Positions 24,501 through 49,317 of a DNA stretch of 64,000 nt are shown here, one piece after another (position 1 is the first letter of the stretch; every line of letters starts with the position of its first letter). Made by a program: the position numbers and the translations under genes. The stretch is from assembly GCA_963666055.2 (NCBI GenBank), contig CAXWPH010000015.1, positions 448,001 through 512,000 of the forward strand, given 5' to 3'. Under the pieces are notes generated by a model. That model ran no database searches. It saw nothing but the letters and a program-made list of their open reading frames with translations, and was not told the origin of the DNA. Source of the stretch: Acidobacteriota bacterium (GTDB lineage Bacteria; Acidobacteriota; UBA890; WLXD01).

Positions 24501-27491
24501 CTATTGCCCTACATCTCCGTTCTCATCGACCTTCACGACAAGCCAGCGACCGACGTAGGCGCTCGGATCGATGTCCGACAGTCGAGCACGCCTTCGACCC
24601 TGTCGCGTCATTGTCGTTACCTCGACCTCCACGAGGGCCTCTCTCGCCAGCCCGAAGTGCACGGGCATGGCGTTCTGAGAGTTGTAGCCAGACCCGGTGT
24701 CGACGATCCGCGTTCCGAGCAGCGCGCCGCTCGCTGCATCGAACAGGCGAACTTCTGCGCCGGCGCGCGTGTAGTGGCCGTCCGCGTCGAGAACGAGCAC
24801 CTGCAGCGACCTGCGGGCGCGTTCGTCAACCTGTGAGTTCAGCAGCAGGTAGTGCATACCCGCCGCTGAACCGCCGGTGAGCGCCAGGTCGAGGTCGCCA
24901 TCGCCATCCATGTCGGCCCAGTGGGCGCCATGGTCCGATTCTTGATCACCGACCACCGGCGGCGTGACGTCGGTGAACCGGTCACCGTCGTTGTGGAACA
25001 GGTAGTCACGGTAGTTGCGGCCGCCGCTGACGGTACCGTTGACATACAGGTCGGGACGGCCGTCGTTGTCGTAGTCGCCCCATGTCGCCGTGTCGTAGCG
25101 GCTGTCGATGGCCAGCCCCATGCGTGGCGCGACGTTCTCGAACGTACCGTTCCCGAGGTTCCGGAAGAGACCATTGGGTCCGTAGTTGGCCATGAAGACG
25201 TCGAGCTTCCCATCGCTGTCAAAATCCGCAATGGCTGGCCTCACGGTGCCAAACGACGAGTTTCCGAGCATCCGTCCGCCGTTGTCCAGACCGGCCTGTG
25301 CGGCCACATCAACGAAGCGCGAACGATCATTGCGGAACAACCCGTTGGCGTCGCCATCCATGTTGGCGACCAGGAGATCGAGATCACCGTCCTCATCGAA
25401 ATCGAACCACGCGGCGCCGACGGTGCGGCGCGGATCGTCCACGCCCAGAGCTTGGGCGACGTTGGTAAACCTGCCGTCGTCGTTTCGGTACAGGGCGTTG
25501 GGCTTGTCGCGCAGGCCGACGAACAGGTCGAGATCTCCATCGATGTCGTAGTCGACCCAGCTCACCTGCCGAAAGCTACCGGTCATCTCGAGCCCGGCAG
25601 CTTCCGTCACGTCGGTGAACCGCCCCCCGTCGCCGGTGTTCTCGTACAGCTTGCTCGAGCTTCCCTGACGCGAAACGAAGCCGACGAACAAATCCAGGTG
25701 CCCGTCGCCGTTGTAGTCGCCCCAGGCCGAGGCCCGCGTCACGTCGTTGTCGGCAACACCGACCTGCGCGGCCACATCGGTGAATGTCCCGCCGTCGTTT
25801 CGGTACAGCCGGTTGGCGCGTTGATTGAAGCCCACGAAGATGTCCAGGTCGCCATCGTTGTCGTAGTCGGCGATTGCGTTGGTGTAGGTGTTGCCGGCAC
25901 CGAACACATCCTCTTGCACGGTCTCGAACTGCGGCCGCCAATCAGTGAACGGTTTGCGCGGCATGCGTTCGTCAACCATCGCTGCCTGATAGGCCAGGCT
26001 GGCGAGAACAACCGAGTTGATCTTCAGATCCTCGGGCAGCAGCTTGTCGAACACATCCATGTTCGTGTGGTGGGTTCGGGTGCGGTATTCGATGCGATCC
26101 TGCAGGATCTGGAACCCGGGCAACCCCGCCTCATCGAACGACAGCTGATCGGAGCCGCGATTGCTGAAGTTCGACAGGGTGCCGACCTTGAGATCGTCGA
26201 ATGGCTTCATCCACGCCTCGAAGATCGGCGCAACGAATTGGTTGCCCTGCTGGTGAATTCCACGAACCTGACCTGTGCCGTTGTCCATGTTGAAGTAAAC
26301 CGAGAAGTTCTCGTAGTCGGCCTTCACGCCGTCTCGAGGATTCCCGAAATGCTCGGCCACGTAGGCGCGGGAGCCGCGTAGCCCGCCCTCTTCGTTGCTC
26401 CAAAGCGCAACCCGTATCGTGCGGCGCGGCGCCACACCGATGGCCTTCAAGATACGCATGGCCTCCAGGACACACGCCGATCCGGAAGCATTGTCGGTGG
26501 CGCCAGTGCCGGAGTGCCAGGAGTCGAGATGGGCGCCGATCATGACGACCTGGTGCGCCAAATCGCTGCCCGGAATCTCGCCGATCACGTTGTATTCCTG
26601 GCTGTCGCGCTCCTCGATGCGGATGCGGACCTCCGCTTCCATCGTCACCGAGACGTTGGCGGCGGCCAAACGATACATCCGGCCATAGTGTTCCGGTGCG
26701 ATGTACAGCGTCGGAAGGCTATGGCGCACCGATGCCGGCGACCGGTCGCGTCTGCCGGTGACGAAGACCGTGCCGTCCCCGCCTTGGGCGGCCACCAGAA
26801 CCACGGCAACACCCTCGGACCTGAAGAACTCCTCCAGCTCATCGGCGCCGAGATCTTCACGCCGCGGCGGATTTCGGGTCCACTCTTCCTCGCGCCGCAA
26901 AGCATTGTTCCGGTCCACGCCTTCCTCGACAAACGTCGCCAACGATCCATCGTCGTGTCGGATCGCAGCCGGCTTGAATCGTGGACCGTATTGCCGCATC
27001 GGTGTGGAGAGCACGATTGCGCCCTGCAGACGGCCGCGATAATCCTCCAATTCCGCATTGCTTCCGATATCGGCAATCACGACCTCGCCGCTGATCTTCC
27101 CGTTGGTCCCGGCGGTGAAAGCCTGTGGGTAGCCGATCAATGGCTGGTAGTCGGGCTCCAGCATGTGCAGCGAAACGTATTCGACGTCCCAGTTCACACC
27201 GTGCTCGCCCCATGGCGCGATCGTCGCGTTGCTGAGCCCGATCTGTTGCATCGTGCTCAAAGCCCATTCTTGCGACTCACGCATGTTGGCAGAGCCTGAG
27301 ACCCTCGGACCTATTACGTCCGTGAGGTGCCACGCATAGTCGATCACCTGAGAACGGTTGAAGCCCTCGTCGCGGATCCTCTCAACTGCCTGCCAATACA
27401 GGTTCCCTTGTGATCGAACGGGTGTGCCCGTTAGCAGCACGGCGGCAATGATCAGAAGGGAACCGAACACCCTCGAAGCAACGCGGCTCAT
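24501..27491 (-). CDS. M28 peptidase fused to FG-GAP repeats and ASPIC/UnbV (CRTAC1-like) domain
   Basis: GAHLDSWH, DNASG, NEEGGL, NMDNG, THHT; then DYDNDGDLD repeats and GSGYNSQN..HFGL. Confidence 0.88.
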   Translation of the reverse strand: MSRVASRVFGSLLIIAAVLLTGTPVRSQGNLYWQAVERIRDEGFNRSQVIDYAWHLTDVIGPRVSGSANMRESQEWALSTMQQIGLSNATIAPWGEHGVNWDVEYVSLHMLEPDYQPLIGYPQAFTAGTNGKISGEVVIADIGSNAELEDYRGRLQGAIVLSTPMRQYGPRFKPAAIRHDDGSLATFVEEGVDRNNALRREEEWTRNPPRREDLGADELEEFFRSEGVAVVLVAAQGGDGTVFVTGRRDRSPASVRHSLPTLYIAPEHYGRMYRLAAANVSVTMEAEVRIRIEERDSQEYNVIGEIPGSDLAHQVVMIGAHLDSWHSGTGATDNASGSACVLEAMRILKAIGVAPRRTIRVALWSNEEGGLRGSRAYVAEHFGNPRDGVKADYENFSVYFNMDNGTGQVRGIHQQGNQFVAPIFEAWMKPFDDLKVGTLSNFSNRGSDQLSFDEAGLPGFQILQDRIEYRTRTHHTNMDVFDKLLPEDLKINSVVLASLAYQAAMVDERMPRKPFTDWRPQFETVQEDVFGAGNTYTNAIADYDNDGDLDIFVGFNQRANRLYRNDGGTFTDVAAQVGVADNDVTRASAWGDYNGDGHLDLFVGFVSRQGSSSKLYENTGDGGRFTDVTEAAGLEMTGSFRQVSWVDYDIDGDLDLFVGLRDKPNALYRNDDGRFTNVAQALGVDDPRRTVGAAWFDFDEDGDLDLLVANMDGDANGLFRNDRSRFVDVAAQAGLDNGGRMLGNSSFGTVRPAIADFDSDGKLDVFMANYGPNGLFRNLGNGTFENVAPRMGLAIDSRYDTATWGDYDNDGRPDLYVNGTVSGGRNYRDYLFHNDGDRFTDVTPPVVGDQESDHGAHWADMDGDGDLDLALTGGSAAGMHYLLLNSQVDERARRSLQVLVLDADGHYTRAGAEVRLFDAASGALLGTRIVDTGSGYNSQNAMPVHFGLAREALVEVEVTTMTRQGRRRARLSDIDPSAYVGRWLVVKVDENGDVGQ

Positions 27492-27779
27492 CTATCGAGC
27501 TCCTTCCGAACTTGAGGCAAGTACAAACACCGGTGGAGGTTGCGACATCGTACCGGACGCCGGGTGTGTGGAGCAGCCGCAGTCACCACACCTGTACACC
27601 CGCAGCGCAAGAGCAAGGCCCTCAGACGCGCGGGTGCTATCAAGTTAGCGAGGCGAGTCCGGTTGAAGAGATTCCGGACAGCGCCGGGCGACGCTGTTTC
27701 ACGCCAAAGTTCAGCGTCGCATGCTCGGCAGACAGAATCGCGCAATCCCTTGGCCTACTCGGGATTTCAGCGGGAAGAC

Positions 27780-27830
27780 TGGCGGGGCCGACGGGATTTG
27801 AACCCGCGATCTCCGGCTTGACAGGCCGGC
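27780..27830 (-). repeat. Displaced tRNA-Asp 3' fragment (att site)
   Basis: Matches anticodon arm to CCA of the tRNA at 40739-40816. Confidence 0.92.
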
Positions 27831-27943
27831 TCCAGACAACATCTAAACTGTTCGTAACACGCGACTTATCCACACACGAAAAAAGCGCGTGTAGCCACTG
27901 TGTAGCCTCCCCTGACCGCTGGACCTGGTGTTGGTTCGTTGGA

Positions 27944-27986
27944 TTGGGGGTGGAGCAGTCAGGTAGCCTGTCGGGCTCATAACCCG
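27944..27986 (+). pseudogene. 5' half of initiator tRNA-fMet
   Basis: GGGGTGGAGCAGTCAGGTAGCCTGTCGGGCTCATAACCCG resembles canonical fMet; no T arm follows. Confidence 0.8.
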
Positions 27987-28176
27987 GGTAGCGCGCTCAG
28001 GGGAGCCTCCCCCCTGGTTCCACTTTTGGTTCCACATTTCCCCAGGTAATCCCTGCCGCTAGCAAGAATCACCAACGATCACAGATCACGGCGGTTGGCT
28101 GCCATCCAGCGCGCTCTCAGCGATTTCGAGTGATGATCGGCACTTACGCACGCACCTGCGAAGTGACCCGACCAGA

Positions 28177-28230
28177 ACTCAAAATCCGGTGGGCTTACGC
28201 TCGTGAGGGTTCGAGTCCCTCCCTCGGTAC
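28177..28230 (+). pseudogene. 3' fragment of tRNA-Leu(CAA)
   Basis: CTCAAAA loop, long variable arm, GAGGG-TTCGAGT-CCCTC T arm, CCTCGGTAC end; no D arm. Confidence 0.8.
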
Positions 28231-28480
28231 TTCTTTAGATACAACGAGTTACAGTATTCTCGACGCCACTAGGGGCGTCAGGTAGCGGTTGCGTGGGGCC
28301 ACATTTGGGGCCACATCACAGCGCAAGATCGGTCCCCATAGCAAGGATCGATAAAGATCGAGAGCAGCCAGCAACACCGCGACGACAGGCGTTGCGGGAA
28401 ATAGCCAGGTATCACGGGCGATCGCGGCAGGTGCGCGAAATGGGGTGAACCCTCCGCCGCTAACGCACGTCCGCCTTCCG

Positions 28481-29242
28481 TCAGAAGTCCTTGACCCGCT
28501 TGATGGTCTCCGGATCGAGGAAGCAGGCGACGGTGGCCTCCCGTTCCAGCCGCATCGCAGCAGCGAGGTCCGTCATCGCCGTGCGGTAGAGCGTCCGGCG
28601 CATGGCGCGTACCGCCAGCGGCGGCAGCTCGGCGAGCTGGCGCGCCACAGCGCGCGCCTCGTCCATCAGCGCGGCATCGGGCACCACGCGCCAGGCAATG
28701 CCGTACTCGCGCAGCGTTGCGGCGTCGTAGCGCGCACCGAGAAACAGCATCTCTCTCGCGCGGTTGAGGCCGACCAGCGCTGGCAGCAGTGCGGTGACGC
28801 CGCCGGTGACGAACAGGTTGAGCGAGACCTCCGGGAAGAAGCCCTTGGCGCTTTCGGCCCAGATCGGAAAGTCGCAGTTGATCGCCCATTCCAAGCCGCC
28901 GCCGACGGCCCAGCCGTTGATCGCGCCAACCACCGGCTTGCCGCCGAAGACGATGGCGTCGGTCGCGCGCTGGATCGCGTCGACGATGTCGCGTGCAGCG
29001 GCCTCGGTCTCCGGGTGCGTGTGCTCGCGCCGGTCATCGCCGGCACAGAACCCGCGGCCGGCGCCGGTGAAGATCACTGCCCGCGTGTCGGGGTCGGCGT
29101 CGGCGTCGGCGAAGGCCTGCGCCACGTCGTCGATCAACTGGCGGTTCATGGCGTTGAGGCTCTCCGGCCGATTAAGCGTGATGGTGCGGACGCCGTCGGC
29201 CTCGCGCTCGCTCAGCACCGTCGCGTAGTCGAATGCAGTCAT
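28481..29242 (-). CDS. Enoyl-CoA hydratase/isomerase family protein
   Basis: ITLNRPESLNA, GFCAGDD, INGWAVGGGLE, FPEV. Confidence 0.92.
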   Translation of the reverse strand: MTAFDYATVLSEREADGVRTITLNRPESLNAMNRQLIDDVAQAFADADADPDTRAVIFTGAGRGFCAGDDRREHTHPETEAAARDIVDAIQRATDAIVFGGKPVVGAINGWAVGGGLEWAINCDFPIWAESAKGFFPEVSLNLFVTGGVTALLPALVGLNRAREMLFLGARYDAATLREYGIAWRVVPDAALMDEARAVARQLAELPPLAVRAMRRTLYRTAMTDLAAAMRLEREATVACFLDPETIKRVKDF

Positions 29243-30591
29243 GTGTAGGTTCTCCAGACGCGGCGAGTCTTTCCTTCGGTGCGCGGCAGGCTGAGCGGTG
29301 GCAGCACCGTCACCCGCGCCGTGGCACCAAGCTCCCGCTTGATTGCCGCCTCGATGCTGGCCGCCAGATCAGCGCCGTCCTGCCCTTCGGCTAGCTCGAC
29401 CTCGACCGGCAGCACATCCTAGGGCGGCGGCCGGTCGAGCACGATGCGGTACTCGCCGCTCGCCGCGTCGAAGCGGTTGAGCACGGACGCCACCATGGTC
29501 GGGTATGTATTGAGACCGCGCACCACCACCATGTCGTCGCTGCGGCCGACGACGCGGAACCGCGGTACCGTGCGGCCGCAGTCAGCCCGGCCGGTGCCGG
29601 TCAACGTGACGATGTCGCCGGTGCGGAAGCGCACCAGCGGCTGGCAATCCTTAGCGAGGTGGGTCAGCACCAGCTCGCCGGACTCGCCCTCGCGCCACGG
29701 CAGCCGGGTGCCGGCGTCGGGGTCGATCAGCTCCGCCTCCAGCACGTCGGTCGCCATGAGGTGCAGGTCGTTGCAGAGTTCCGTCTGGCCGGCGAAGTTG
29801 CACAGCACGTCGGAGACGCCGTAGTTCGCGTTGCGGGCGCGGAAGCCCCAGGTCTCCTCCAGCCGGGCACGGAACGCCGGGTCGTCGAGGCCGGGCTCTC
29901 CGCCGAACAGGCCGAGCTGCAGGCCGAGGTCACGCGGCGCCAGGCCGGGATAGTGCTCCGCCAGCACCTGCCCCATCACCGCCGGATAGGAGGGCGTGCA
30001 GGAGATCGCGGTGACGCCGAGCTCGCGGATCACCCGGATCAGGCCCGTACTGCCGCCGACCCCGTAGGGGATCACCGTGGCGCCGGTGGCCTCCAGCGTC
30101 GTGTGGTCGGTGAACCCGCCCATCCAGAGCTGATAGTTGAGACAGTGCACCACCCGGTGGCCCGGTCCGAGTCCGGCAGCGGACTGGGCGCGCGCGCCGA
30201 CCGCAGCGGTCATCCTCGCGTCCGCGGCCGACAGCGCCAAGTTCATGGCGTCGCCGGTGGTCGCCGAGGTGCGGTGGACGCGGCAAATTTCCTGCGGCGG
30301 CGCGGCGAGGTAGCTGCCGAACGGCGGCTGGGCGCGCTGGTCGGCGCGCAGCATCTCCTTGTCAGTGAACGGCAGGTCCGCCAGCTCCGCGAGGTCGCCG
30401 GTCAGTTTCAACCCGGCGAAGTGCCTTGCGTAGAACACGGACGCGCGCGCTACATAGGCGCTCTGCGCGCGCCAACGGTCTGTGCGGATCGCTGCGAGCT
30501 CGCCTTCGTCGAGGAACTCTGCCCCATCGATCGCGTGCTGTGTCCGCACCGTCATCTGCCGTACAAATAGCCAGGATTGAATTTGCTGCAA
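29239..30591 (-). pseudogene. Phenylacetate-CoA ligase family gene with in-frame TAG at 29419-29421
   Basis: HRTSATTG, GGEPG, NYGVSD, RFRTGD, GRSDDM; frame continues 59 codons past TAG (LPRTEGKTRRV) to a TGA overlapping the next ATG. Confidence 0.82.
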
Positions 30592-30784
30592 CCCAGACTG
30601 TCTACCACTCGACAGTCTCCCTGTCTCGGCTCCTGTTGCCGGTTGTGCTCCCGTGCGGCAAGCGCTCAGGTGGGGGTCGCCAGCAAAGCAGCAGCAACTA
30701 GCCGCGGGGGCTGCAGCGCTGCGGCTTCACCGCGATTGGTTGAGCGAACGACCCACTGACCCACCACCTGCCTGTTCCCGTCGC

Positions 30785-32755
30785 CTAGGGGAGCGCCACC
30801 GCGACGTACTCCGGCGGGTGGTTCTGGTCGCCGACCGACACGACGATGTACTGCCTACCGTCTAGCATGTAGGTCATAGGGCCGGCTGTGGTTCCGGATG
30901 GCAACTCCATGGCCCACACCACGTCGCCGGTAGCCTTGTCATAGGCGCGAAAGACCCTGCCCCAGGCCCACTCCTCGTCGAGGGTACCCATGACGGCGTT
31001 GCTGCCCTCTCCGAGGAAGAGCAGGGTCTTGGTCAGCAGCGGCGCCGGACGGTTCGGAACGCCGAGCGGCGGCAGGTTCAGGTGCCGCAGCAACGGGTGC
31101 TTTCGCTGCCCGTCGCCGTTGGCCGCCATCCACAGCTGCTCGCCGCGGTTCAGGTCCAGGGCCGTGATGCGGCCGTGGGGGGGCTTCATGATGAACAGTC
31201 CGTCGATCGTGGGCGCGGCGGCCGGCTCGTAGGCGTACTCCATGGTCGCCGCCGGGTCGGTCTGCTTGACTGCGTTGCGGTTCGTCGGGCCGTAGGAGCT
31301 GTTGGAGACCGCGTAGTAGACGCCGGTCTCCGGGTCGAACGCGCCAGTGTTCCAGTTGCCCGCCCCCCAGGAGCCGGGGTACAGCAGCGAGCCCTTCGTG
31401 CCTCCGGGCTCGTCGCTGGGGACGGAGGGCGGCGTGAACAGGGGCCCGGTGACGTACTGGCTGGCGAGCTCGCGCGCCTGGCGGTTGAGCGCCGGCGTGT
31501 AGTCGATCAGGTCGGCTTCGGTGATGCCCTGCCAGTCGAACGGCGGCGGCTTGGTGGGGAACGGCTGTGTCGGCGAGGCTGCCTCCCCGGGCACCGTCGA
31601 CGCCGGCACCGGGCGCTCCTCGATGGGCCACAAGGGCTCGCCGTTCCGGCGGTCGAACACGAACAGGAACGCGTGCTTGGTGGGCTGCATCACCACCGGG
31701 ATCCGGCGCCCGTCGACCGTGATCTCGCCCAGCGTCGCCGGGCCGATGGGCTCGTAGTCCCACAGGCCATGGTGGATCATCTGGAAGTGCCAGACGCGCT
31801 CACCGGTCTGCGCGTCGAGCGCCACGAGGCTGTTGGAAAAGAGGTTGTCGCCCGGCCTCCAGCCCCCGTACCAGGCGGTCGTCGGAGCCGAGAACGCCAC
31901 ATACACGTGGCCGAGCTCCTCGTCGGCGCTCATCAGCGACCAGGCACCCATGTCGCCGGCGACCTTCCACGAGTCGTTGCCCCAGGTCTCGACGCCGAAC
32001 TCGCCTTCTTGTGGCACCACGTGGAACGTCCACAGCAACTCGCCCGTGCGCACGTCATAGCCACGGGCATCCTCGGGAACCGCTTCCCTCTTGTTGCCCC
32101 TGTCCCCGGCGCCGGCGGTTAAGCCGCTGACCACAACGACATCACCGACGATGATCGGGCCGCTGCTATCGCTGAACCTGCCGGCGAGCGGCTGGCGATC
32201 CTCGAACCGCAGGCTGACCCTGCCGTCGTCGCCGAAATCACCGTACGGCTCGCCGGTGCCGGTGTTGAGTGCGTACAGATACTCGCCGCGAACCGCGAGG
32301 ATCCGGTCGTCTCCAGAGCCACTGCTCCAGTAGTCGACGCCACGAGTGGACTCGCCCTCGGCCTCCTCCTGGGTGAACTCGACGAGCTCCTGTTCCCAGA
32401 CGATCTCGCCGGTGGCTGCGTCGAGGGCGATCACCAGGCCGTGGGCGTCCTGCGTGTAGAGCACACCGTCGACGAAGATCGGCGTGGAGCGCAGGTAGGC
32501 GCTGGGGAACAGGTCGGGAAACGCCTCGGTGAGCTCGCTGCGCACTGCCGGGCGCCGCCAGACGATACGCAGGTCGGCGACGTTGTCGCGGTGAATCTGA
32601 TCGAGGGGGGAGTAGCGGGTGAACGCTTTGCTGCCACCGAAGTAGCTCCACTCCGACTGCTGTGGTTGTGCAGGCGGTGTTGTTGCGGCCGGTAGCGCCC
32701 CCGCACCGAGGCTGGCCATGAGGCAGATGATGACGGAACGGCGGAAACGAGCCAT
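30785..32755 (-). CDS. PQQ-dependent dehydrogenase (glucose/quinate family)
   Basis: RYSPLDQI, RGYDVRTG, WHFQMIHHGLWDY, QPFPTKP, PMTYMLDGRQYIVV; signal peptide. Confidence 0.9.
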   Translation of the reverse strand: MARFRRSVIICLMASLGAGALPAATTPPAQPQQSEWSYFGGSKAFTRYSPLDQIHRDNVADLRIVWRRPAVRSELTEAFPDLFPSAYLRSTPIFVDGVLYTQDAHGLVIALDAATGEIVWEQELVEFTQEEAEGESTRGVDYWSSGSGDDRILAVRGEYLYALNTGTGEPYGDFGDDGRVSLRFEDRQPLAGRFSDSSGPIIVGDVVVVSGLTAGAGDRGNKREAVPEDARGYDVRTGELLWTFHVVPQEGEFGVETWGNDSWKVAGDMGAWSLMSADEELGHVYVAFSAPTTAWYGGWRPGDNLFSNSLVALDAQTGERVWHFQMIHHGLWDYEPIGPATLGEITVDGRRIPVVMQPTKHAFLFVFDRRNGEPLWPIEERPVPASTVPGEAASPTQPFPTKPPPFDWQGITEADLIDYTPALNRQARELASQYVTGPLFTPPSVPSDEPGGTKGSLLYPGSWGAGNWNTGAFDPETGVYYAVSNSSYGPTNRNAVKQTDPAATMEYAYEPAAAPTIDGLFIMKPPHGRITALDLNRGEQLWMAANGDGQRKHPLLRHLNLPPLGVPNRPAPLLTKTLLFLGEGSNAVMGTLDEEWAWGRVFRAYDKATGDVVWAMELPSGTTAGPMTYMLDGRQYIVVSVGDQNHPPEYVAVALP

Positions 32756-33221
32756 TGCTGGTCCTCCTGAACTGGTCTCCAGTCCCTGCGAACGAGTAGC
32801 TCGCAGGGCAGACGTACGCTTTAGTCGTGACAGAGTAACGGCATCGCCGTGGCTCTTCACCGGGACGCAACGTCGCCGGTCCATTGGCCACCCTCGCAGC
32901 CTTGCGACCCCGCGCCTGGGGCCGGGAGAGTCTAGCCTCGGCCACGACTATGCCTCAACCGGGCGAACGCCCGATCTCGTGGACATCCGTGGGTAAGTGG
33001 CCACGAAAAGAGCCTCTTCGAGGCAACTGGGTCAACGAGCTGCAGCGACTCGTGCCGACGGAGCCGTAGCGGGCTCAGCGGAGTCTTGTGAGCCGGGCTT
33101 CGAGCGCGTCTTTGGCCGGGTGCCACCCTGGGTGCCACTCTGTGCAACTCGTGGCACCTGCACAGAGTTGCATGACCCGTAAACGTTGGGGTTATTGGGG
33201 TTACGAGAGGCCCCAATAAAA

Positions 33222-33263
33222 CTCATAACCCGAAGGTCGTAGGTTCGAATCCTACCCCCGCTA
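33222..33263 (+). pseudogene. 3' half of initiator tRNA-fMet
   Basis: CTCATAACCCGAAGGTCGTAGGTTCGAATCCTACCCCCGCTA. Confidence 0.85.
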
Positions 33264-33267
33264 CTTC

Positions 33268-33322
33268 AGAAAAGCCCTGGTGGCAAAGGGATATTCGCCC
33301 TTTCGTGCCACCGGGGCTTTCT
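33268..33322. terminator. Terminator-like hairpin after the fMet fragment
   Basis: AGAAAAGCCCTGGTGGCA / TGCCACCGGGGCTTTCT stem. Confidence 0.6.
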
Positions 33323-33423
33323 GCGTCTGAGCCCGGCATCTAACAGGGATCTAACGATTGATTGTGATTGACCGTCCGTACATCCAGATCGGTCGGAAGA
33401 AGTCGGGCCTACGGTGCCGATCG

Positions 33424-33474
33424 GAGCAGCTGACGTAATCAGCAGGTCCGCGGTTCAAATCCGCGCGCCGGCTC
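33424..33474 (+). pseudogene. tRNA-Thr fragment with 2-nt-short anticodon loop
   Basis: GAGCA-GCTGA-CGTAA-TCAGC-AGGTC-CGCGG-TTCAAAT-CCGCG-CGCCGGC-TC. Confidence 0.75.
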
Positions 33475-33732
33475 TTTAGATTCAATAACTTACAGCCAGT
33501 CTCTCTGGAGCCTGCCGTTTTGGGGGTCGGTCTGGGGGTCGGCGAGTGACTTATGGAATCGACGTGTGTGCGTTTCGGGTAAAGCGTCCCCCCTATATAT
33601 AGGACTCTTGCCCTTCTCTAATTGGGGGCCATGCCGGTTGACGCTGGGGAGACCCTTACGGTGACTCCCTTGGACCCTCGACCGCTCCAGCGATAGGCTT
33701 CAGGCGCTCACCCTCCCTGCCTCGGGAGCGCC

Positions 33733-34098
33733 ATGAAACCCGGCACCAAACTAGGCCCCTACGAGATCACCGAGCAGCTCGGTGCTGGCGGCATGGGAGA
33801 GGTGTGGCTCGCCGAGGACTCCCGCCTGGGCCGCAAGGTGGCCATCAAGGTGCTGCCCGCCGAGTTCGCCTCCGACCCGGAGCGCCTCGCCCGCTTCGAG
33901 CAGGAAGCCCGTGCTGCCGCTGCGCTGAACCATCCGCACATCGCAGCCGTCTTCGATGTCGGCACCGAAGACGGCACCCACTTCATAGTGCAGGAGTACC
34001 TGGAGGGAGACACGCTACGGGAGCCGCTACAGAAAGGTGCGCTGCCGCTCAAGAAGGCGCTCGGCCTGACCTGCCCCCCAATAGTCGGGCCAGTTTGA
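33733..34098 (+). pseudogene. Hanks-type Ser/Thr kinase N-lobe, truncated by an IS end
   Basis: [21 protein letters not shown]; similarity stops at about 34066 before HRD/DFG. Confidence 0.88.
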
Positions 34099-34190
34099 GA
34101 GTTAGGATTTGAGGCTCTCAGGATGGCTCGGGAAGGGGGAACAATGGCCCGGAAGCGGTACACGGTAGAGCAGATCATCAGGGGAAGCTT
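34067..34190 (+). mobile_element. IS3-family left end and OrfA start (remnant)
   Basis: TGACCTGCCCCC terminal motif; ATG 34144 gives MARKRYTVEQII, then the frame is lost. Confidence 0.7.
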
Positions 34191-34407
34191 GGACGGTGGC
34201 GCGGAGATGAGACCATAGCGGCTGCTTCGGCTTCGTACGCGACTTCTGCCGGGCAGGGCTTCCGAGGGTGTTGTCAACTTAACCCCTCATCGCTTCTAGT
34301 CACTCTCTACCTGGATAATCGCGCGCGAAAAGGGACCATCTTCCTATTAGCTGGTAGGCGCAACGCGCCTATTCCCGACTCCCTACAGCCGGAGGGATCT
34401 AGATCAG

Positions 34408-36348
34408 ATGCGACAGAGGACCTCGTGGAAGCAGCTGTTGGCAGGTTGGCTCGTTGTCATCGGGGCGTCGAGCGCCGTTTTCGGGTCCGAGCATGCCTAC
34501 TCCCCGCAGCAGACCGAACGTTACGACGATGTGATAGTCGCACTCGATGTCATGGTGCCGATGCGGGACGGCGTCCGACTGGCCACGGACATCTATCGGC
34601 CGGCTCGTGAAGGCAGGGCGGTCGATGGACGGTTCCCGACTTTGCTCTGCCGTACGCCCTACGGGACGTCGTTCCGGAACCCGGACGCAACCGGCTATGG
34701 CTGTTCCGAGGAGCCTGCGCGTTCCATGGCGCGACACGGATATGTGGTGTTGACTCAGGATGTCCGCGGTCGATTCGACTCGGAAGGCGAGTTTTATGCC
34801 TACGTCAACGAAGGGCCCGACGGCTACGAGACCGTGGAATGGGCAGCCGCGCAGCCCTTCTCGAACGGTGACGTCGGCACCTTCGGAGCGTCGTACTACG
34901 CCGCCACGCAGAATGCGCTGGCCGCCGAGCGTCCACCGCACCTCAAAGCGATGTTCCAGCGTGTCGGTAGCTCCCACTACTGGCTAGACGGTGCCGGTAG
35001 TGGTGGCGCCTTCGCGCTCCGGCACAACCTCGCCTATGCACTCTACCTGGCTAGCACCGGCCAGGAAGCCGATCGCCAACCGGCTCTGAAGACGGTCCTG
35101 CAGGCCGCTCTGCAGCGAGACAACCTCGCCGCTTGGCTCTGGGCCTACCCGTACCGGCCGCATGGGTCGCCGCTGGAGCTGGTGCCGAGTTATCAGCGCT
35201 GGTTCCAGGACTGGGTCGATCACTCCGGCTTGGACGACTACTGGACCCAGAACGGCTATGCCTTCGAGCCTTACTACGACAACTACCCGGACATCCCTGT
35301 CTACTTCGTTGGCGGTTGGTACGACATCTTCCTGCGCGGCGCGTTGAATGGCTACTCGATGCTCTCGGCAATTCAATCGAGCGAGAAGCGCCTGCTGGTC
35401 GGTCCATGGACCCACGCAGTCGGGCCGCGAACAAGCGGTGATGTCGACTTCGGAGTCGACGCCGCAATCGATCTGGAGGCGGAGCAGCTGCGCTGGTTCG
35501 ACCACGTGTTGCGTGGCAAGGACACCGGCTTCTCCGACGAACCGCCCGTCCGTGTGTTCGTCATGGGGGGCGGAGATGGCTCTCGTACCACGGAAGGCCG
35601 CCATCGACACGATGGCCGCTGGCGGTCGCTCGGGGGTTGGCCGCCCGCGGCTGCCGAGTCTCGAGCCTACTATCTGCAACCGAACGGCCGGCTCGATCTG
35701 CAAGCGCCGCGTTCCATCGCGGAGCCATCTGTCTTCACCTTCGATCCGACCGATCCGGTGCCGACGATCGGTGGGAAAGTCAGCTCCGGCAACAACATGA
35801 GCCCGGCCGGTCCCTACGACCAGCAGTGCGATACAACGAGGTTCTTCCCCTGCAAGGACAATCTACCGTTGGCAGCGCGCCGCGACGTGCTCGTCTTTCA
35901 GACGGCACCTTTACAGGAGGACGTCGTCGTCATCGGTCCGCTTACGGTGACCCTTTGGATAGCCTCGTCAGCGGTGGATACCGACTTCACCGCCAAGCTT
36001 GTCGATGTGCATCCCCCGGGTCCTCACGCACCCGCCGGCTATTCGATGCTGCTGGCGGATAGCATTGTACGGGCCCGCTACCGAGACAGCTTGGCGACAG
36101 CAAAGCCCCTGGCCCCTGATGAGATCTACGAGATCGAGATCGATCTTCTCGGCACTGCCACCCGGTTCAAGAAGGGGCACCGGATTCGACTCGACGTGTC
36201 GAGCAGCAACTATCCCTTCTTCGATGTCAACCCGAACACCGGCGAGCGCCCCGGTCATCACACGCACATGGCACCGGCGCGCAACAGCGTCTATCACGAT
36301 CGGATGCGACCTTCGAAGCTTCAGATGCTCATCCTGCCAGAGCCGTGA
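34408..36348 (+). CDS. CocE/NonD family hydrolase
   Basis: MRDGVRLATDIYRP, RTPY, QDVRGRFDSEG, GASY, GGWYD, GPWTH, RLDVSSSN. Confidence 0.93.
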   Translation: MRQRTSWKQLLAGWLVVIGASSAVFGSEHAYSPQQTERYDDVIVALDVMVPMRDGVRLATDIYRPAREGRAVDGRFPTLLCRTPYGTSFRNPDATGYGCSEEPARSMARHGYVVLTQDVRGRFDSEGEFYAYVNEGPDGYETVEWAAAQPFSNGDVGTFGASYYAATQNALAAERPPHLKAMFQRVGSSHYWLDGAGSGGAFALRHNLAYALYLASTGQEADRQPALKTVLQAALQRDNLAAWLWAYPYRPHGSPLELVPSYQRWFQDWVDHSGLDDYWTQNGYAFEPYYDNYPDIPVYFVGGWYDIFLRGALNGYSMLSAIQSSEKRLLVGPWTHAVGPRTSGDVDFGVDAAIDLEAEQLRWFDHVLRGKDTGFSDEPPVRVFVMGGGDGSRTTEGRHRHDGRWRSLGGWPPAAAESRAYYLQPNGRLDLQAPRSIAEPSVFTFDPTDPVPTIGGKVSSGNNMSPAGPYDQQCDTTRFFPCKDNLPLAARRDVLVFQTAPLQEDVVVIGPLTVTLWIASSAVDTDFTAKLVDVHPPGPHAPAGYSMLLADSIVRARYRDSLATAKPLAPDEIYEIEIDLLGTATRFKKGHRIRLDVSSSNYPFFDVNPNTGERPGHHTHMAPARNSVYHDRMRPSKLQMLILPEP

Positions 36349-36387
36349 CATTTCCTTTGACATTTCGGGTTCAAACAGCGACAGACA

Positions 36388-36552
36388 GCCTCCCTGAACT
36401 ACCCCAACATCGCCACCATCTTCGGGTTCGAGGAGTCGGGCGGTGTTCGGTTCATCGCCATGGAGCTGGTGGAGGGTCAGAGTCTCGCCGAGCGCATTGA
36501 AGCTACCGGTCGCATCAAAGTAGATGAGGCACTGGAGATCGCCCGCCGGATC
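36388..36552 (+). pseudogene. Internal fragment of a second Ser/Thr kinase
   Basis: ASLNYPNIATIFGFEESGGVRFIAMELVEGQSLAERI..EALEIARRI. Confidence 0.8.
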
Positions 36553-36705
36553 GATGGAGCCCGTTGTCGTCCGTGGTACGCGACGGCTCCCGCCTGGCTC
36601 GCGGAATACCCGTGTACCCCGAGCTCACCGACAAGGAGCTCCTGGCGCTGCGCCACTACATCCGACGACAGGCCGAGACGGTGGAGCGCTGACGCACGCG
36701 AGAGA

Positions 36706-37818
36706 TTATCTCCGCGCTTCTAGCATCTCCTGATACCGGGCCCCGCGCAGCACGTTGGAGAGCGAGTAGTTGGCCTCGTGGCAGGCGTACTCGTACAGCG
36801 GTTGGTCGAACCGCTCGAAAGGAACCTCGCCACCCCAGGCGCTCGTGTACATCGTCGGGTCGTCGATGGTGAACTCGTAGTGAATCGTGTCCTCGTCCAC
36901 CCGGGTGAAGCGCTCGATCACCTTCTGATCGTTCGATGGTGGAACTCCGCGGAACATGTGAACGGGATTGAGGTTGGTGGTCTCGACCACCAGCGTGTTG
37001 CCCTCCCACCGACCCCACGAGTCACCGAACCACGGACGGACGTCCTTCGGCAGCGCCGTCGGCTCGCCGAGCCGAATGATCCGCGCGTCGTGCACCATCT
37101 CTGCCATGATCACCACGTGATCGGCATTTTGTACGATGGTGTAGTTGTTGTTGTACCAGTAGTTGGGCAGCATCGGCGGTCCGGCGCTTGATTGGAACGA
37201 TACAAGGCATCGTTCGCCAGGTGGGCGGAGTTCCGGATGGTCAAACGGACCGAACTGGCTCCTGAGCTCCCGATACTTGTCGACTCGGCGACGCCCCTCG
37301 TGCGTCAGCTCCGGCGCGCGGCCGTCCGGCGGATTTGTGACAAGCGAGCTCCGTGGCTCACCGTTCACGATCGCTACCCGCTCACCGGGCTCTCGGTAGA
37401 CTTCGTTGTAGCAATCTGTCGCCGAATGGATGCACTCTGGAATCGTACCCCCGGCCGGAAGCGGCAGGCGGTTCGGATCGCTCGGAGCGGCGCCTCGGAC
37501 GACCATTTCGACCTGCCTGGCTTCGATCTCGGCGACCTCCTCCCACGTGAGAACAGGTCCCTGGCCTGCGGGGCGCTGGAAGGGGGTCAGCGTCGCATTG
37601 GTCCAGTTCCCTTGGAGGTCCGGATGACCGTGCGACGTTCTGGGCACCTCCCACGGTACAGCCTCGGAGACCTGGCCCTGCTGGACAGAAGGGTAGGATG
37701 ACACCGCCGCAACCGATGCAAGCGCCGCCACGACGATCGGATAGTGCCTTGGAGAGAACGATGCCGAGAGCTTGCCGTTCATCTTTGCCTTCCTTTGCCT
37801 GTGTGCACGTACGATCAT
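36706..37818 (-). CDS. Conserved secreted hypothetical protein
   Basis: PRTSHGHPDLQGNWTN, IVQ..DHV, GDSWGRWEGNTLVVET, EYACHE: family commonly seen near PQQ/heme genes. Confidence 0.8.
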   Translation of the reverse strand: MIVRAHRQRKAKMNGKLSASFSPRHYPIVVAALASVAAVSSYPSVQQGQVSEAVPWEVPRTSHGHPDLQGNWTNATLTPFQRPAGQGPVLTWEEVAEIEARQVEMVVRGAAPSDPNRLPLPAGGTIPECIHSATDCYNEVYREPGERVAIVNGEPRSSLVTNPPDGRAPELTHEGRRRVDKYRELRSQFGPFDHPELRPPGERCLVSFQSSAGPPMLPNYWYNNNYTIVQNADHVVIMAEMVHDARIIRLGEPTALPKDVRPWFGDSWGRWEGNTLVVETTNLNPVHMFRGVPPSNDQKVIERFTRVDEDTIHYEFTIDDPTMYTSAWGGEVPFERFDQPLYEYACHEANYSLSNVLRGARYQEMLEARR

Positions 37819-37837
37819 CGACCCGCAGCAGCCTCCC

Positions 37838-38146
37838 TCAGGCGATCGTCTCCCAGTTCGTCACGAGATGATCGGCGGTTCGCCAGGCGAGCGCCTGCGC
37901 CGTGAGCGTTGGAGAAAACCCCCAACGGTCAACGACGCTAGTATCGGGATTGTCGCCCATACGGGCGCCGCCGTAGGCGTGGGTCGACGTACCCATCGTG
38001 CCGATGTCGTTCTTAACCGTGTCCACCGCGCCGGCCTCCAGACCGATCACCTCGAGGCCGGCTTCAACGAGCGGCAGGACCGCAAAGCCGCCGGCGGCCC
38101 CCAGACCAACCACGACTACGTCCGTCTTCTTCAGCTCAACGGTCAA
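37838..38146 (-). pseudogene. GMC oxidoreductase reduced by internal deletions
   Basis: FAD motif DVVVVGLGAAGG joined to THAYGGARMG and PTLTAQALAWRTA in about 100 aa. Confidence 0.75.
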
Positions 38147-38387
38147 GGCCCATCTCCCGTGTTGAGAACCCGCTGCCAGTGTCCACTCAGCGCCGGCAAA
38201 GCGGATGCCTCTGGTTCCACGCGCGCGCGGCAAAGCCAACGGACCCAGTTTACAGTCACGCCGATTGAATCACTCGTCGCGCCGCCTCTGTTGTTGAGCC
38301 TCGGTTTCGTGGATAGAGTCAGTGCCGACCCCAACTGCCTGACGAGAACTAGCGCGCAGACCACCCCGAAACGGAGATCAGCTACCC

Positions 38388-40538
38388 ATGTACCGAACTG
38401 AGTCTGTATCGCTGAAAACCCGTGGCCGGTGGATGCTGCTGCCGTCAATGGTGTGGGCGGTCTGCTCCGCTCAAGCTTCCGGCGCCGCCCAATCATCCGG
38501 CAGGCCACAGTCGCCCACCGTGGTCAACGACAGCGCCATGGTCGACGAGTCGCGGGGCGACAACTGGCTGGCGTTCGGGAGAACCTACAGCGAGCAGCGC
38601 TTCAGCCCCCTGACCCAGGTCAATACGTCCAACGTCGGTGACCTGTCGGTCGATTGGTATCTCGACCTGCCGAACGATCGGGGCCTGACTTCCACACCGC
38701 TCGTTGTCGACGGCATCCTGTACTTCATCGGCAGCATGAACGTCGTGCGCGCCGTCGACGGAACCAGCGGCGAGATGCTGTGGGAGTATGACCCGGACAT
38801 CGTCGGGCACGCGGCCCATCGCATGCGGGCCGGCTGGGACCACAGCCGGGGCATCGGGTTCTGGAAAGGCAAGGTCTACGTCGCCACCTGGGACGGGCGT
38901 CTCAACGCTGTCGACGCCGCCACCGGAGAGGAGCTGTGGAGCGTCATGACGGTCGACCCGGCCGTCCACTCTACATCACCGGCGCCCCCAAGATCTTCAA
39001 GGGCAAGGTGCTGATCGGTAACGGCGGCACCGAGAACGGCGCCGCCCGCGGCTACGTCACCGCTTACGATGCCGAGACCGGCGAGCAGGCCTGGCGCTTC
39101 TGGATCGTACCCGGCAACCCCGCCGACGGGTTCGAGAACGACGCCATGGCGATGGCCGCCGAGACCTGGACCGGCGAGTGGTGGAAGTTCGGCGGCGGCG
39201 GTAACGCCTGGCACGGTTTCACCTACGACGCCGAGCTAGACGTGCTGTACATCGGCACCGGCAACGGCTCACCGTGGAACCGGAAGATCCGCAGCCCCGG
39301 GGGCGGCGACAACCTGTTTCTGTGTTCCATTGTCGCCCTCGACCCGGATACCGGTGAGTACCTGTGGCACTACCAGACGACGCCCGGCGAGACGTGGGAC
39401 TACAACTCCAACATGGACATCGTCCTGGCCGACCTCGAGATCGACGGCCGCGACGTGAAAGCAATCCTGCACGCCCCAAAGAACGGTTTCTTCTACGTGA
39501 TCGACCGCGAGACCGGGAAGCTGATCTCGACCGAACCGTTCGCCGAGGTCACCTGGGCGACGGAGATCGATCTGGAGACCGGCCGACCCGTCGAGGTGTC
39601 GGGCGCGCGGTACGATGATCGACCGGCCCGGATCGCGCCGGGGCCGATCGGCGCCCACAACTGGCCTGCCATGTCCTACAACCCGTCCACCGGGTTGGCC
39701 TACATGCCGACAATCCACACGGCGACGATGTTCAGCGACGAGGGTATCGACCTCGAAGCCTGGGACTCACCGGTGGGAAGGCTCGGAGTGGGGGTCAGGT
39801 ACAACCTGGCAGGGTCCAGTAGGCCGGACGGCGTGCTCGGATCCCTGCAAGCGTGGGATCCGGTGCGCCAGGAACTGGCCTGGGAGGTTCCGCTAGGCGG
39901 CCTCTGGAATCCCGGAACGATGACCACCGCCGGCAACCTGGTGTTCCAGGGACGAGTCGACGGGTCGCTCGCGGCGCATGACGCCGCGAGCGGCTCCACG
40001 TTGTGGACCTTCGACGTGGGTTCAGGGATCTCCGCCCCGCCGATCACCTATGCGATCAACGGGCGCCAGTACGTCGCTCTGCTGGTCGGCTGGGGCGGTG
40101 TGATGGCGGCGGTGGGGGGGGGCCGAAGGAGCTTCGCATGGGTGGGCGTACGGCGCACACCCACGCCGTCTTGTGGCGTTTTCCCTCGACGGGGCGGTCA
40201 GCCTACCGACATCGCCGCCACCTGTGGTGCCGGTACCGATTGCAGCTGCCGACTTCGACGTCGACCCCACCCTGCTGCTGCGGGGCGGCACAGAATATTC
40301 TGGGCTGTGCGAACTCTGCCACGGAAGAGGCGCGATTGCCGCCGGTGTAACACCGGATCTCAGAGCCTCTCGCGTGGTGCTTTCCGACATCGCGTTCGCG
40401 ACCGTCGTCCGCGACGGCAGCCGCGTGGCACGCGGAATGCCAGCCTATCCCGAGCTCACCGAAAATCAACTACTGGCGATACGTCACTACATTCGCTACG
40501 TAGCCGAGCAGGGCAGCACCGGTGGGCGGCGTCCGTAG
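38388..40538 (+). pseudogene. Quinohemoprotein (type II PQQ) alcohol dehydrogenase with two frameshifts
   Basis: QRFSPLTQVN, GYVTAYD, YQTTPGETWDY, APKNGFFYV, C-terminal CELCH; frame changes at about 38957 and in G9 run 40114-40122. Confidence 0.85.
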
Positions 40539-40738
40539 AAGCTGACACTGGGGATCGAATCAGGCGCAGCGATTTCCACAAGAACCGCCGTAGTCTGAGC
40601 CTCACTTGCGGCAGGCGGGTTGGCCACTCGCTTTCATTCGCACCAGACGATCATGACCTTTCGGTCTCCGGCGTGCGAGGCCGGATGCCATGCACTCGCG
40701 AAATCACCCGGTACTGCTTGGGATTTCAGCGGAAACAC

Positions 40739-40816
40739 TGGCGGGGCCGACGGGATTTGAACCCGCGATCTCCGGCTTGACAGGCCGGCGTGTTAACCAA
40801 GCTACACCACGGCCCC
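40739..40816 (-). tRNA. trnD: tRNA-Asp(GTC)
   Basis: Full cloverleaf GGGGCCG/CGGCCCC, loop CTGTCAA, encoded CCA. Confidence 0.97.
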
Positions 40817-40859: not shown

Positions 40860-40935
40860 TGGTGGGCGGTACCGGACTCGAACCAGTGGCCCCCTGCTTG
40901 TAAGGCAGGTGCTCTCCCAGCTGAGCTAACCGCCC
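40860..40935 (-). tRNA. trnV: tRNA-Val(TAC)
   Basis: Full cloverleaf GGGCGGT/ACCGCCC, loop CTTACAA, encoded CCA. Confidence 0.97.
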
Positions 40936-49222: not shown

Positions 49223-49317
49223 GATTCGACTCGTTCGGGGTCTCGTCGAGGCGCCTGGCGACTCGTATCGCAACGCTCAGAAGAACGCCAGCCGCAGGCG
49301 CTGCGCGCTCCAAAAAG

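What the first reader, a model, noticed from the sequence alone, without database searches (positions are those of the whole stretch)
27780..40789. Integrase-less tRNA-Asp island carrying a set of att-like sites for four different tRNAs
The 13-kb island has perfect boundary repeats but no recognisable recombinase. Inside are fragments of tRNA-fMet (both halves), Leu(CAA) and Thr, packed into two ~450-bp non-coding blocks (27830-28320, 33110-33545) with arm-like repeats, separating catabolic cargo. Hypothesis: a non-autonomous element that collects attP/attB sites so integrases supplied in trans can excise, nest or retarget cargo modules. Related concepts are tycheposon islands and tripartite ICEs, but here no enzyme is on board. 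The alternative is a graveyard of serial insertions.
Basis: partly seen in the sequence, partly recalled or inferred. Interest (0 to 1): 0.78.

Follow-up and report, generated by a model that had tools for sequence, protein, structure and literature searches.

The report
Mixed tRNA att-site relic island
Behind an aspartate tRNA gene of an Acidobacteriota bacterium lies a 13-kb patchwork with no recombinase, holding docking-site pieces copied from four tRNAs (likely a fifth); one of its gene blocks sits beside other tRNAs in related genomes, so it is most likely decaying wreckage of gene traffic between tRNA-anchored islands rather than one working mobile element.

Summary
Observation confirmed. 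The 51-nt tRNA-Asp repeat, both fMet halves, and the Leu(CAA) and Thr(CGT) pieces are present, flanked by paired direct repeats. No recombinase lies inside.

Interpretation partly supported. Retargeting is real. The distal cargo block (28177-33095) is 99.4% identical to a unit of the tRNA-Leu(CAA) array of G002, whose flanks are only 93-96% identical. Its genes also sit in an integrase-free tRNA-Arg(TCT) array in G004. The fMet-Thr block recurs in this genome and in a tRNA-Pro island of G004.

The 13 kb is not one working element. The proximal half occupies this locus in G002 and G004 without a distal Asp repeat. The tRNA-side site has no arm repeats, the Asp integrase was not found in this genome, the Thr core and fMet 5' half are damaged, and four cargo genes are broken.

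Best reading: relics of several tRNA-specific arrays, like known cis-mobilizable elements (CIMEs), stitched together by deletion, IS activity and recombination at a multi-copy kinase-gene end. Integrase-less tRNA arrays are known, and this scan found them before on other DNA, including mixed-tRNA relics. The traceable traffic between tRNAs is the added value.

The parts
27633..27689 (+). Remnant of an IS/MITE-type end (degenerate terminal repeat); it abuts and probably truncated the Asp P' arm
   Evidence: Related 16-nt repeat has 33 matches in the genome; 27661-27689 matches C6 about 150 nt from such a repeat. The truncating role is inferred.
27690..27779 (-). Stub of the P'-side sequence of a tRNA-Asp element; ends just before the arm repeats
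   Evidence: About 80% match to the stretch between tRNA-Asp and its integrase in G001, stopping where that copy's GGCTACAC pair begins
27780..27830 (-). tRNA-Asp(GTC) 3' 51 nt (att core)
   Evidence: 100% to tRNA-Asp positions 28-78
27831..27907 (-). P-side spacer and GGCTACAC arm pair (27890-27907) of the Asp/Ala(CGC) integrase family
   Evidence: Same pair beside the G001 Asp integrase, before the G003 distal Asp site and on contig C3
27947..27986 (+). Decayed tRNA-fMet 5' half, through the anticodon loop
   Evidence: 90% to own fMet; its D-loop variant matches fMet genes of the sister family rather than of this genus
28015..28176 (+). TGGTTCCAC arm pair and P-side spacer of the Leu(CAA) site
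   Evidence: 28015-28095 is 95% identical to a site 19 kb behind the genome's own tRNA-Leu(CAA)
28177..28315 (+). tRNA-Leu(CAA) 3' part (28177-28230) with P'-side GGGGCCAC arm pair (28295-28314); start of cargo module 1
   Evidence: 100% to own tRNA; same core, arm and cargo in the G002 Leu(CAA) array
28481..29242 (-). Enoyl-CoA hydratase/isomerase (module 1)
   Evidence: PF00378, E 9e-49
29242..30591 (-). Acyl-CoA ligase-like gene with a premature stop at 29419-29421 (module 1)
   Evidence: Weak PF00501; the frame continues behind the stop and is 450 aa in G002
30785..32884 (-). PQQ-dependent dehydrogenase (module 1)
   Evidence: PF01011, E 1e-166
33024..33095 (+). Orphan 3' end of the multi-copy Ser/Thr kinase gene family; junction between Leu-array cargo and an fMet-array end
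   Evidence: 67 matches in the genome. G002 matches up to 33095 only; G003 and G004 match tail plus fMet arm over 212 nt.
33118..33221 (+). GGGTGCCAC arm pair (33118-33138) and P-side spacer of the fMet site
   Evidence: Same pair beside an apparently intact integrase at an fMet fragment on C2, and in the native fMet arrays of G003 and G004
33222..33356 (+). tRNA-fMet 3' half (33222-33264), hairpin, and ATCTAAC arm pair (33338-33355)
   Evidence: 91% to the sequence behind native tRNA-fMet in G001; arm pair invariant in 6 of 6 aligned copies
33424..33540 (+). tRNA-Thr(CGT) 3' part with a 2-nt loop deletion, and GGGGGTC arm pair (33522-33540)
   Evidence: 89% to the region behind native tRNA-Thr(CGT) on C12
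33733..34066 (+). Head of a Ser/Thr kinase gene, cut off by an IS end
   Evidence: PF00069; 102 head matches in the genome
34067..34245 (+). IS3 left end fused at a short shared stretch to the 3' tail of an amidohydrolase gene that is whole in G002
   Evidence: Matches IS copies with IS3 orfA/orfB; overlap at about 34149-34179
34408..36348 (+). CocE/NonD-type hydrolase (module 2)
   Evidence: PF02129 and PF08530
36388..36664 (+). Internal kinase-gene remnant, followed by a 78% copy of the end of the dehydrogenase gene at 40393-40495
36706..37818 (-). 370-aa protein without Pfam match (module 2)
   Evidence: homologues in G001-G004
37838..38239 (-). GMC oxidoreductase remnant
   Evidence: Weak PF05199 over 27 residues
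38388..40540 (+). PQQ dehydrogenase gene in three frames (two frameshifts); 716 aa and whole in G003
   Evidence: tblastn in three pieces
40666..40684 (-). Piece matching the tRNA-Ala(CGC) anticodon arm, likely a fifth att relic
   Evidence: 18 of 19 nt. In G002 the same piece follows a GGCTACAC arm pair. Sister integrases sit at tRNA-Ala(CGC).
40697..40738 (-). Short P'-side stub behind tRNA-Asp, without arm repeats
40739..40816 (-). tRNA-Asp(GTC), the anchor gene; tRNA-Val(TAC) lies upstream at 40860-40935

Best explanation
The region holds pieces of four tRNA genes (likely a fifth), each next to paired direct repeats, with partly broken cargo genes and no recombinase; it is most likely a stitched mosaic of leftover att sites from integrase-less island arrays at different tRNAs, not one excisable element. 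Shown by comparison: the proximal 6.4 kb (module 2) lies behind tRNA-Asp in other genomes of the genus, while the distal 6.6 kb is particular to this genome among those compared. Module 1, with its Leu(CAA) site, is a recent near-identical copy of a unit found in a tRNA-Leu(CAA) array. The stretch from the kinase tail to the fMet core is the same as in the native fMet arrays of two relatives. Inferred mechanism: tyrosine integrases on passing elements stack units at about ten tRNAs, and the integrase genes are then lost. Units are next moved between arrays by crossovers in shared repeats (here the 72-nt kinase 3' end), by IS-driven deletion, and now and then by crossover between unlike tRNA cores. 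Collapsed ends leave a core, one arm pair and the next core about 160 nt apart. Cargo would travel again only when an incoming integrase-bearing element co-excises its neighbours (cis-mobilisation); this was not tested.
For: Module 1 is 99.37% identical over 4922 nt to G002, against 93.4% and 95.6% for the flanks and 95.9-98.4% for module 2. In G002 it lies between two Leu(CAA) cores in the native array; in G004 its genes form the distal unit of a seven-fragment Arg(TCT) array. The breakpoint falls at the kinase tail, and both parent types exist. 13 of 53 tRNA fragments in this genome lie within 500 bp of a kinase head or tail, against a mean of 1.7 (maximum 6) in 300 uniform random draws. Module 2 lies behind tRNA-Asp in G002 and G004 with no Asp repeat in the fetched stretches. 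Decay: stop codon in the ligase, two frameshifts in the dehydrogenase, kinase cut by IS3, GMC remnant, damaged Thr loop, no arms at the tRNA-side site. The Asp integrase was found in 3 of 26 genomes, not this one. The same architecture (outer repeat of one tRNA, inner fMet and Thr sites) occurs at tRNA-Pro(TGG) in G004. On C10 an inverted Leu(CAG) stem is joined exactly at the fMet loop.
Against: The G004 Arg array has the same arm pair on both sides of 3 of 7 junctions and no integrase remnant, which looks more like orderly cassette loading than decay. The Leu site in the window has two similar arm pairs (18 of 23 nt alike, read) and could be a complete attP-like site. An apparently intact integrase with the GGGTGCCAC arm is in the genome. 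In run X21 a contig joins module 1 to the arm allele found at another locus (C5), which hints at recent exchange. The kinase control is uniform over the genome, while kinases and fragments both cluster in islands, so it overstates the link. The order of events is not fixed: module 2 could have lain inside an older Asp element whose distal site G002 and G004 lost.
Confidence: 0.62

Rival explanations
1. A live cassette-exchange system. Integrase-less, att-bounded cassettes are loaded into arrays and moved between tRNAs by integrases acting in trans. Some integrases reuse one arm sequence with several tRNA cores and may tolerate a mismatch in the 7-nt loop (the Leu(CAA) and fMet loops differ by one base). 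The window would be a snapshot of this traffic, with module 1 still excisable.
For: Integrase-free arrays in G004 (7 Arg fragments) and G003 (9 Leu(CAA) fragments) with no recombinase among the 11 and 25 ORFs scanned there, IS3-type transposases aside. Arm motifs occur with more than one core: ATCTAAC with fMet and Leu(CAG); GGGACA with Arg, Lys, SeC, Leu(CAA) and Thr; GGCTACA with Asp and Ala. Recent transfer of module 1. Precise junction of unlike cores on C10. A published precedent for an integrase-less 13-kb island moved by trans-acting proteins (PMC3191183, abstract).
Against: Module 1 has non-identical arm pairs at its two ends in both G000 and G002. Its right boundary changes at the kinase tail, not at a core. 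In G003 and G004 its ends do not coincide with att sites on both sides. G004 has 13 PF00589 hits and only a remnant beside a tRNA. No att-site joint appeared among the joints shown for six runs (weak, contigs only).
Confidence: 0.25
2. One tRNA-Asp element integrated as a 13-kb circle that already carried the other att sites as passengers and later lost its integrase: the first reader's island as a single CIME.
For: Perfect 51-nt repeat in the expected orientation, with a P-side arm pair inside the distal end. G003 has a 7.8-kb integrase-less Asp element with the same distal end type. G001 shows the integrase-bearing form.
Against: Module 2 and the amidohydrolase tail are at this locus in G002 and G004 without the repeat. 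The distal site is followed by a P' stub rather than by host sequence, so it is a junction between elements. The two halves differ in their identity to G002.
Confidence: 0.1
3. Assembly chimera of several strains or loci joined at tRNA and kinase repeats.
For: The genome holds near-duplicate tRNA clusters on different contigs and many repeats.
Against: Contigs from public runs match with no difference across 27144-27807, 28203-29634 and 31779-33251, the last bridging the kinase-tail junction. One of these runs may be the source sample, and no listed piece spans 27830-28203.
Confidence: 0.03

Closest known systems
CIMEs and microCIMEs from tandem accretion (Streptococcus; PMC7563491 and PMC5704250, passages read)
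   Same: Elements that lost recombinase and transfer genes but kept att sites. Cargo-bearing ones are 1.2-13 kb; gene-free microCIMEs are 130-220 bp, like the roughly 160-nt core-arm-core pieces here.
   Different: In the passages read, CIMEs stack at one target gene. Here neighbouring cores come from different tRNAs, and one cargo block is traced in arrays at different tRNAs. No ICE or IME partner was looked for in this genome.
Tycheposon-built islands of Prochlorococcus (10.1101/2020.12.28.424599, passages read)
   Same: Tyrosine integrases at a small set of tRNAs, elements separated by partial tRNAs, and remnants with scattered partial tRNAs.
   Different: The passages describe each island as having its own tRNA and integrase. 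Here there is no integrase or replication module in the island, and the sites of several tRNAs are mixed.
Islander-type tDNA islands and tandem arrays (PMC4383910, passages read)
   Same: tRNA plus displaced, same-orientation fragment; anticodon-centred cores; both 3'- and 5'-fragment types.
   Different: Islander rejects candidates without an integrase, so this island and the arrays of its relatives would not be listed.
Microcin H47 island of E. coli (PMC3191183, abstract read)
   Same: A 13-kb island with no recombinase, bounded by direct repeats.
   Different: Its excision and integration were shown experimentally. Here no intact site pair was found and nothing was assayed.
Tripartite ICEs of Mesorhizobium (PMC5882170, start of abstract in a search listing)
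   Same: Sites of several specificities lie near one another.
   Different: They need three recombinases and coordinated assembly before conjugative transfer. No such set of paired sites or on-board enzymes is present here.
Additive flexible genomic islands (PMC10872708, passages read)
   Same: Variable cargo behind repeated tRNA ends.
   Different: One tRNA per island in that description; arm repeats and exchange between tRNAs were not in the passages read.

Membership tests
CIME (cis-mobilizable element) | No recombinase or transfer genes on board | tested here: met
   only an IS3 end without transposase
CIME (cis-mobilizable element) | Retains attL and attR of one specificity | tested here: inconclusive
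   Asp cores at both ends and an arm pair at the distal site, but no arm pair at the tRNA-side site
CIME (cis-mobilizable element) | Derived by deletion from an ICE or IME | tested here: inconclusive
   An integrase-bearing element with the same arms exists in G001; relaxase and conjugation genes were not searched for
CIME (cis-mobilizable element) | Transfers after accretion with a functional element | not testable with these tools
   Needs an excision or mating assay
Tycheposon | Own tRNA-specific integrase | tested here: not met
Tycheposon | Replication or packaging module | tested here: not met
   None among the island ORFs scanned with Pfam
Tripartite ICE | Three recombinases with three matched att pairs | tested here: not met
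   No recombinase in the island; no pair with matching cores and arms
Tripartite ICE | Conjugation machinery | not tested
   Not searched genome-wide; none in the island
Islander-type tDNA island | tRNA gene and displaced end fragment in the same orientation, 2-200 kb apart | tested here: met
Islander-type tDNA island | Integrase gene within the interval | tested here: not met
Integron | Integron integrase beside the array | tested here: not met
   No tyrosine recombinase in the 64-kb window
Integron | attC sites between cassettes | not tested
   No attC model was run; the separators found are tRNA pieces with arm repeats (defining feature recalled, not from a call)

The most novel reading that the evidence does not exclude
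This Acidobacteriota genus runs an integron-like gene exchange without an integron. Integrase-less cassettes are stored in arrays at about ten tRNAs. Transient tyrosine integrases switch tRNA targets while keeping their arm sites and move the cassettes, and about a hundred near-identical Ser/Thr kinase gene ends serve as crossover hubs that re-address cargo from one tRNA to another. Chains of unlike att cores sharing one arm pair would be its working adaptors.
Probability: 0.22. Interest if true: 0.75.

Novelty: new variant of a known kind. Interest (0 to 1): 0.48.

Why it matters
Islands at different tRNAs are usually treated as separate pools, each with its own integrase. Here the genes of one cargo block can be followed into arrays at three different tRNAs, and one breakpoint maps to a multi-copy kinase repeat. 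That gives a concrete route by which gene modules change address. The genus also offers a natural panel of integrases, arm motifs and tRNA cores for testing how integrases switch targets. Island finders that require an integrase would miss these arrays. If the locus is only decayed, its value is as a clear record of that traffic.

Tried and rejected
Circles or empty sites: contigs of six runs were laid (X19-X22; X19, X21, X1, X2). No joint between att sites of this locus was among those shown (163 and 1 more were not shown). Contigs can hardly resolve a 51-nt repeat and drop rare forms, so this is no evidence of absence. A joint from 27967 to 33222 in X20 has foreign letters between and a depth ten times the local one; I rejected it as another organism's tRNA.

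A built-in landing pad for Thr elements inside the fMet end: G001 has the spacer without the Thr core, but it runs into unrelated coding-like sequence rather than an empty site. Inconclusive.

A shared arm pair serving both the fMet and Thr sites: rejected. Integrase-linked Thr sites have their arm pair about 140-150 nt upstream, twice the distance here.

tRNA-Pyl fragments, my first label for the G004 array: rejected; they are Arg(TCT) 5' halves.

Serine recombinases: 2 PF00239 and 3 PF07508 hits in the genome, none on the island's contig.

Literature: two multi-term searches returned nothing and two returned one review each. The library lacks most subscription papers and no supplements were read, so absence from print is not shown.

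Earlier scan notes: none by place or by sequence.
Full report
SETTING. The window is G000:C15:448001-512000 of a 5.7-Mb, 15-contig genome, 95.7% complete. A contig of a same-genus genome is titled Acidobacteriota, and the class holds 26 genomes here. Related sequence occurs in seawater runs and, at higher share, in runs labelled with two coded organisms.

All tRNA pieces are at the stated places. Each block has 3 arm-like repeat pairs where about 0.15 are expected. No recombinase was found by Pfam on 16 ORFs or by tblastn with the 29 PF00589 frames of the genome (best E 0.05). I read the repeat pairs as integrase arm sites because the same motifs lie directly beside integrase genes: GGCTACAC beside the G001 Asp integrase, GGGTGCCAC beside the C2 integrase at an fMet fragment, and ATCTAAC behind the N-terminally truncated C7 integrase. 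The attP/attL/attR and P/P' labels rest on recalled lambda-type architecture; binding was not tested.

THE LOCUS IS A SAMPLE OF A GENOME-WIDE PATTERN. The genome has 53 tRNA fragments, mostly Leu(CAG), fMet, Thr(CGT), Leu(CAA) and Arg(TCT). That count includes near-duplicate loci on different contigs, one truncated copy of a real tRNA and one mislabelled fMet half. It also has 29 PF00589 hits. Integrases lie beside Leu(CAA), fMet, Thr and several other cores. The Asp integrase of G001 has no close homologue here (best full-length hit about 30%, plus a broken remnant). It was found in 3 of 26 genomes, as 5 copies: 3 at tRNA-Asp and 2 at tRNA-Ala(CGC). This explains the Ala(CGC)-like piece at 40666-40684.

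THE 13 KB IS TWO PIECES. Module 2 (34149-40542) lies behind tRNA-Asp in G002 and G004 with no distal Asp repeat in the fetched DNA. Its left neighbour in the window is the tail of an amidohydrolase gene that is whole in G002, fused to an IS3 end. G002 has 3.2 kb of other genes where this genome has 27541-34148. The distal Asp site has its inner arm pair but is followed by a stub of P'-type sequence cut off before the arms. The site at the tRNA has only a short stub. By inference the pair cannot be excised in the normal way. I cannot exclude that module 2 once lay in an older Asp element whose distal site G002 and G004 lost.

MODULE 1 HAS CHANGED ADDRESS. 28177-33095 is 99.37% identical to G002, whose flanks here are 93.4% and 95.6% identical. 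In G002 it is a unit of the native tRNA-Leu(CAA) array, between two Leu cores. In G004 its three genes (92-95%) fill the distal unit of an array of seven Arg(TCT) 5' halves. In G003 and G001 the genes lie near IS ends with no close att site. A seawater contig links the Leu core to module 1 (X1), and another leaves the window at 33063 (X2). The right breakpoint is the orphan kinase 3' end: G002 matches through it and then goes to a Leu arm, while G003 and G004 carry the same tail joined to the window's fMet arm and core in their native fMet arrays. The simplest reading is a crossover in that repeat. The genome has 102 kinase-head and 67 kinase-tail matches, and 13 of 53 fragments lie within 500 bp of one (random mean 1.7, maximum 6 of 300 draws). 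That control ignores clustering in islands.

CHAINS OF UNLIKE CORES RECUR. Among this genome and the loci fetched up to then, 20 distinct close pairs (60-450 nt) were found; one is an edge artefact. 10 of the other 19 are 150-175 nt apart, but 4 of those are copies of the fMet-Thr block and 2 are one Leu(CAG)-Lys join, so they represent 6 kinds. The fMet-Thr block occurs three times in this genome and once in G004. There it lies inside a tRNA-Pro(TGG) island bounded by a Pro repeat, the same architecture as the finding. Its arm pair is invariant in 6 of 6 aligned copies, yet the Thr loop is damaged in 3 of the 4 copies that have it. Block A as a whole was found only here among 26 genomes. Several arm motifs occur with more than one tRNA core among 253 core sites examined; some of those counts arise simply because one arm pair sits between two cores. 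On C10 an inverted Leu(CAG) stem meets the fMet loop at the exact base, which I read as a crossover between unlike cores.

DECAY. The ligase has a premature stop, the second dehydrogenase has two frameshifts, the kinase is cut by IS3, and the GMC gene is a remnant. Contigs of X19 match the window across the stop and do not show either repairing insertion, while X21 and X2 each show one.

AGAINST MY READING. The arrays in G004 and G003 show no recombinase remnants; I scanned 50 of the 67 ORFs listed, plus the Asp integrase as a positive control. Three G004 junctions carry the same arm pair on both sides. The window's Leu site has two similar arm pairs. An apparently intact integrase with the fMet-side arm exists. 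In X21 a contig links module 1 to an arm allele matching contig C5 at all 5 listed positions. These points keep a live, trans-acting system at about one chance in four.

READS. Contigs from runs of two studies match the window with no difference across several junctions, and show similar depth inside and outside the island. One run may be the source of the assembly. Circles could not be tested with contigs.

KNOWN SYSTEMS. The closest are CIMEs and microCIMEs (PMC7563491, PMC5704250; passages), tycheposon islands with scattered partial tRNAs (10.1101/2020.12.28.424599; passages), Islander tDNA islands (PMC4383910; passages) and additive islands (PMC10872708; passages). The microcin H47 island is the precedent for trans-mobilisation (PMC3191183; abstract). 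Hybrid ICEs formed by homologous recombination in tandem arrays are described in PMC5812530 (passages). The locus fails the tycheposon, tripartite ICE and integron tests and only partly meets the CIME test. Searches turned up no paper whose listing described mixed-tRNA att chains, but the library is partial and no supplements were read. This scan has 15 earlier findings of integrase-less tRNA arrays in other genomes and two on mixed-tRNA relics; I did not check them.

VERDICT. A real, well-preserved mosaic of att relics. It works like a CIME stack, with the added and demonstrable feature that cargo and att ends have been exchanged between arrays at different tRNAs. New variant of a known kind; interest 0.48.

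Noticed in passing
G000 C5:65608-65685: ARAGORN calls tRNA-Pyl; it is a degenerate tRNA-Arg(TCT)-like copy (88%) lying 160 nt from an fMet att site.
   Followed up: yes
L014:12045 to L101:9157 (G004 C2, about 2452044-2479157): Array of seven Arg(TCT) 5'-half sites upstream of the tRNA, with 3-6 kb units (kinase, amidohydrolases, PQQ enzymes, ion channel, Calx-beta proteins) and no integrase. A pair of small ORFs resembling a HigBA toxin-antitoxin module by eye lies just outside its distal end.
   Followed up: partly
L083-L085 (G003 C33, about 493000-535000): Nine Leu(CAA) 3' fragments and one SeC fragment over 42 kb, with only IS3-type transposases as mobility genes.
   Followed up: partly
L088:7347-13954 (G004): tRNA-Pro(TGG) island bounded by a Pro repeat, holding two fMet sites, a Thr site, an integrase remnant and a Mutator-type transposase.
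   Followed up: partly
L020:6731-14607 (G003): 7.8-kb integrase-less tRNA-Asp element with an oxidoreductase and two Trk/Na-H exchanger-type genes.
   Followed up: partly
window 33665-34066 and genome-wide: About 100 near-identical heads and 67 tails of Ser/Thr kinase genes (full-length forms carry WD40-like propellers), many as fragments, with a conserved 70-nt leader.
   Followed up: partly
G000, 33 matches; degenerate copy at window 27633: IS/MITE family with a 16-nt terminal repeat, including pairs about 800 and 130 nt apart.
   Followed up: no
G000 C7 vs C10, C6 vs C13, C14 vs C15: Near-duplicate tRNA clusters (Lys-Glu, SeC with integrase, Glu/Gln/Ser) on different contigs; possibly strain haplotypes or large duplications.
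   Followed up: no
L021:874-2205: The tRNA-Asp integrase scores below the PF00589 cut-off (22.9 of 27.1 bits) but has a clear arm-binding domain; searches by cut-off would miss this family.
   Followed up: yes
window 24501-27491: M28 peptidase fused to FG-GAP/ASPIC repeats, flanking the island; not found in the stretch fetched at this locus in G004.
   Followed up: no
window 49317-49390: tRNA with CAT anticodon of a third type (possibly Ile2); not examined.
   Followed up: no
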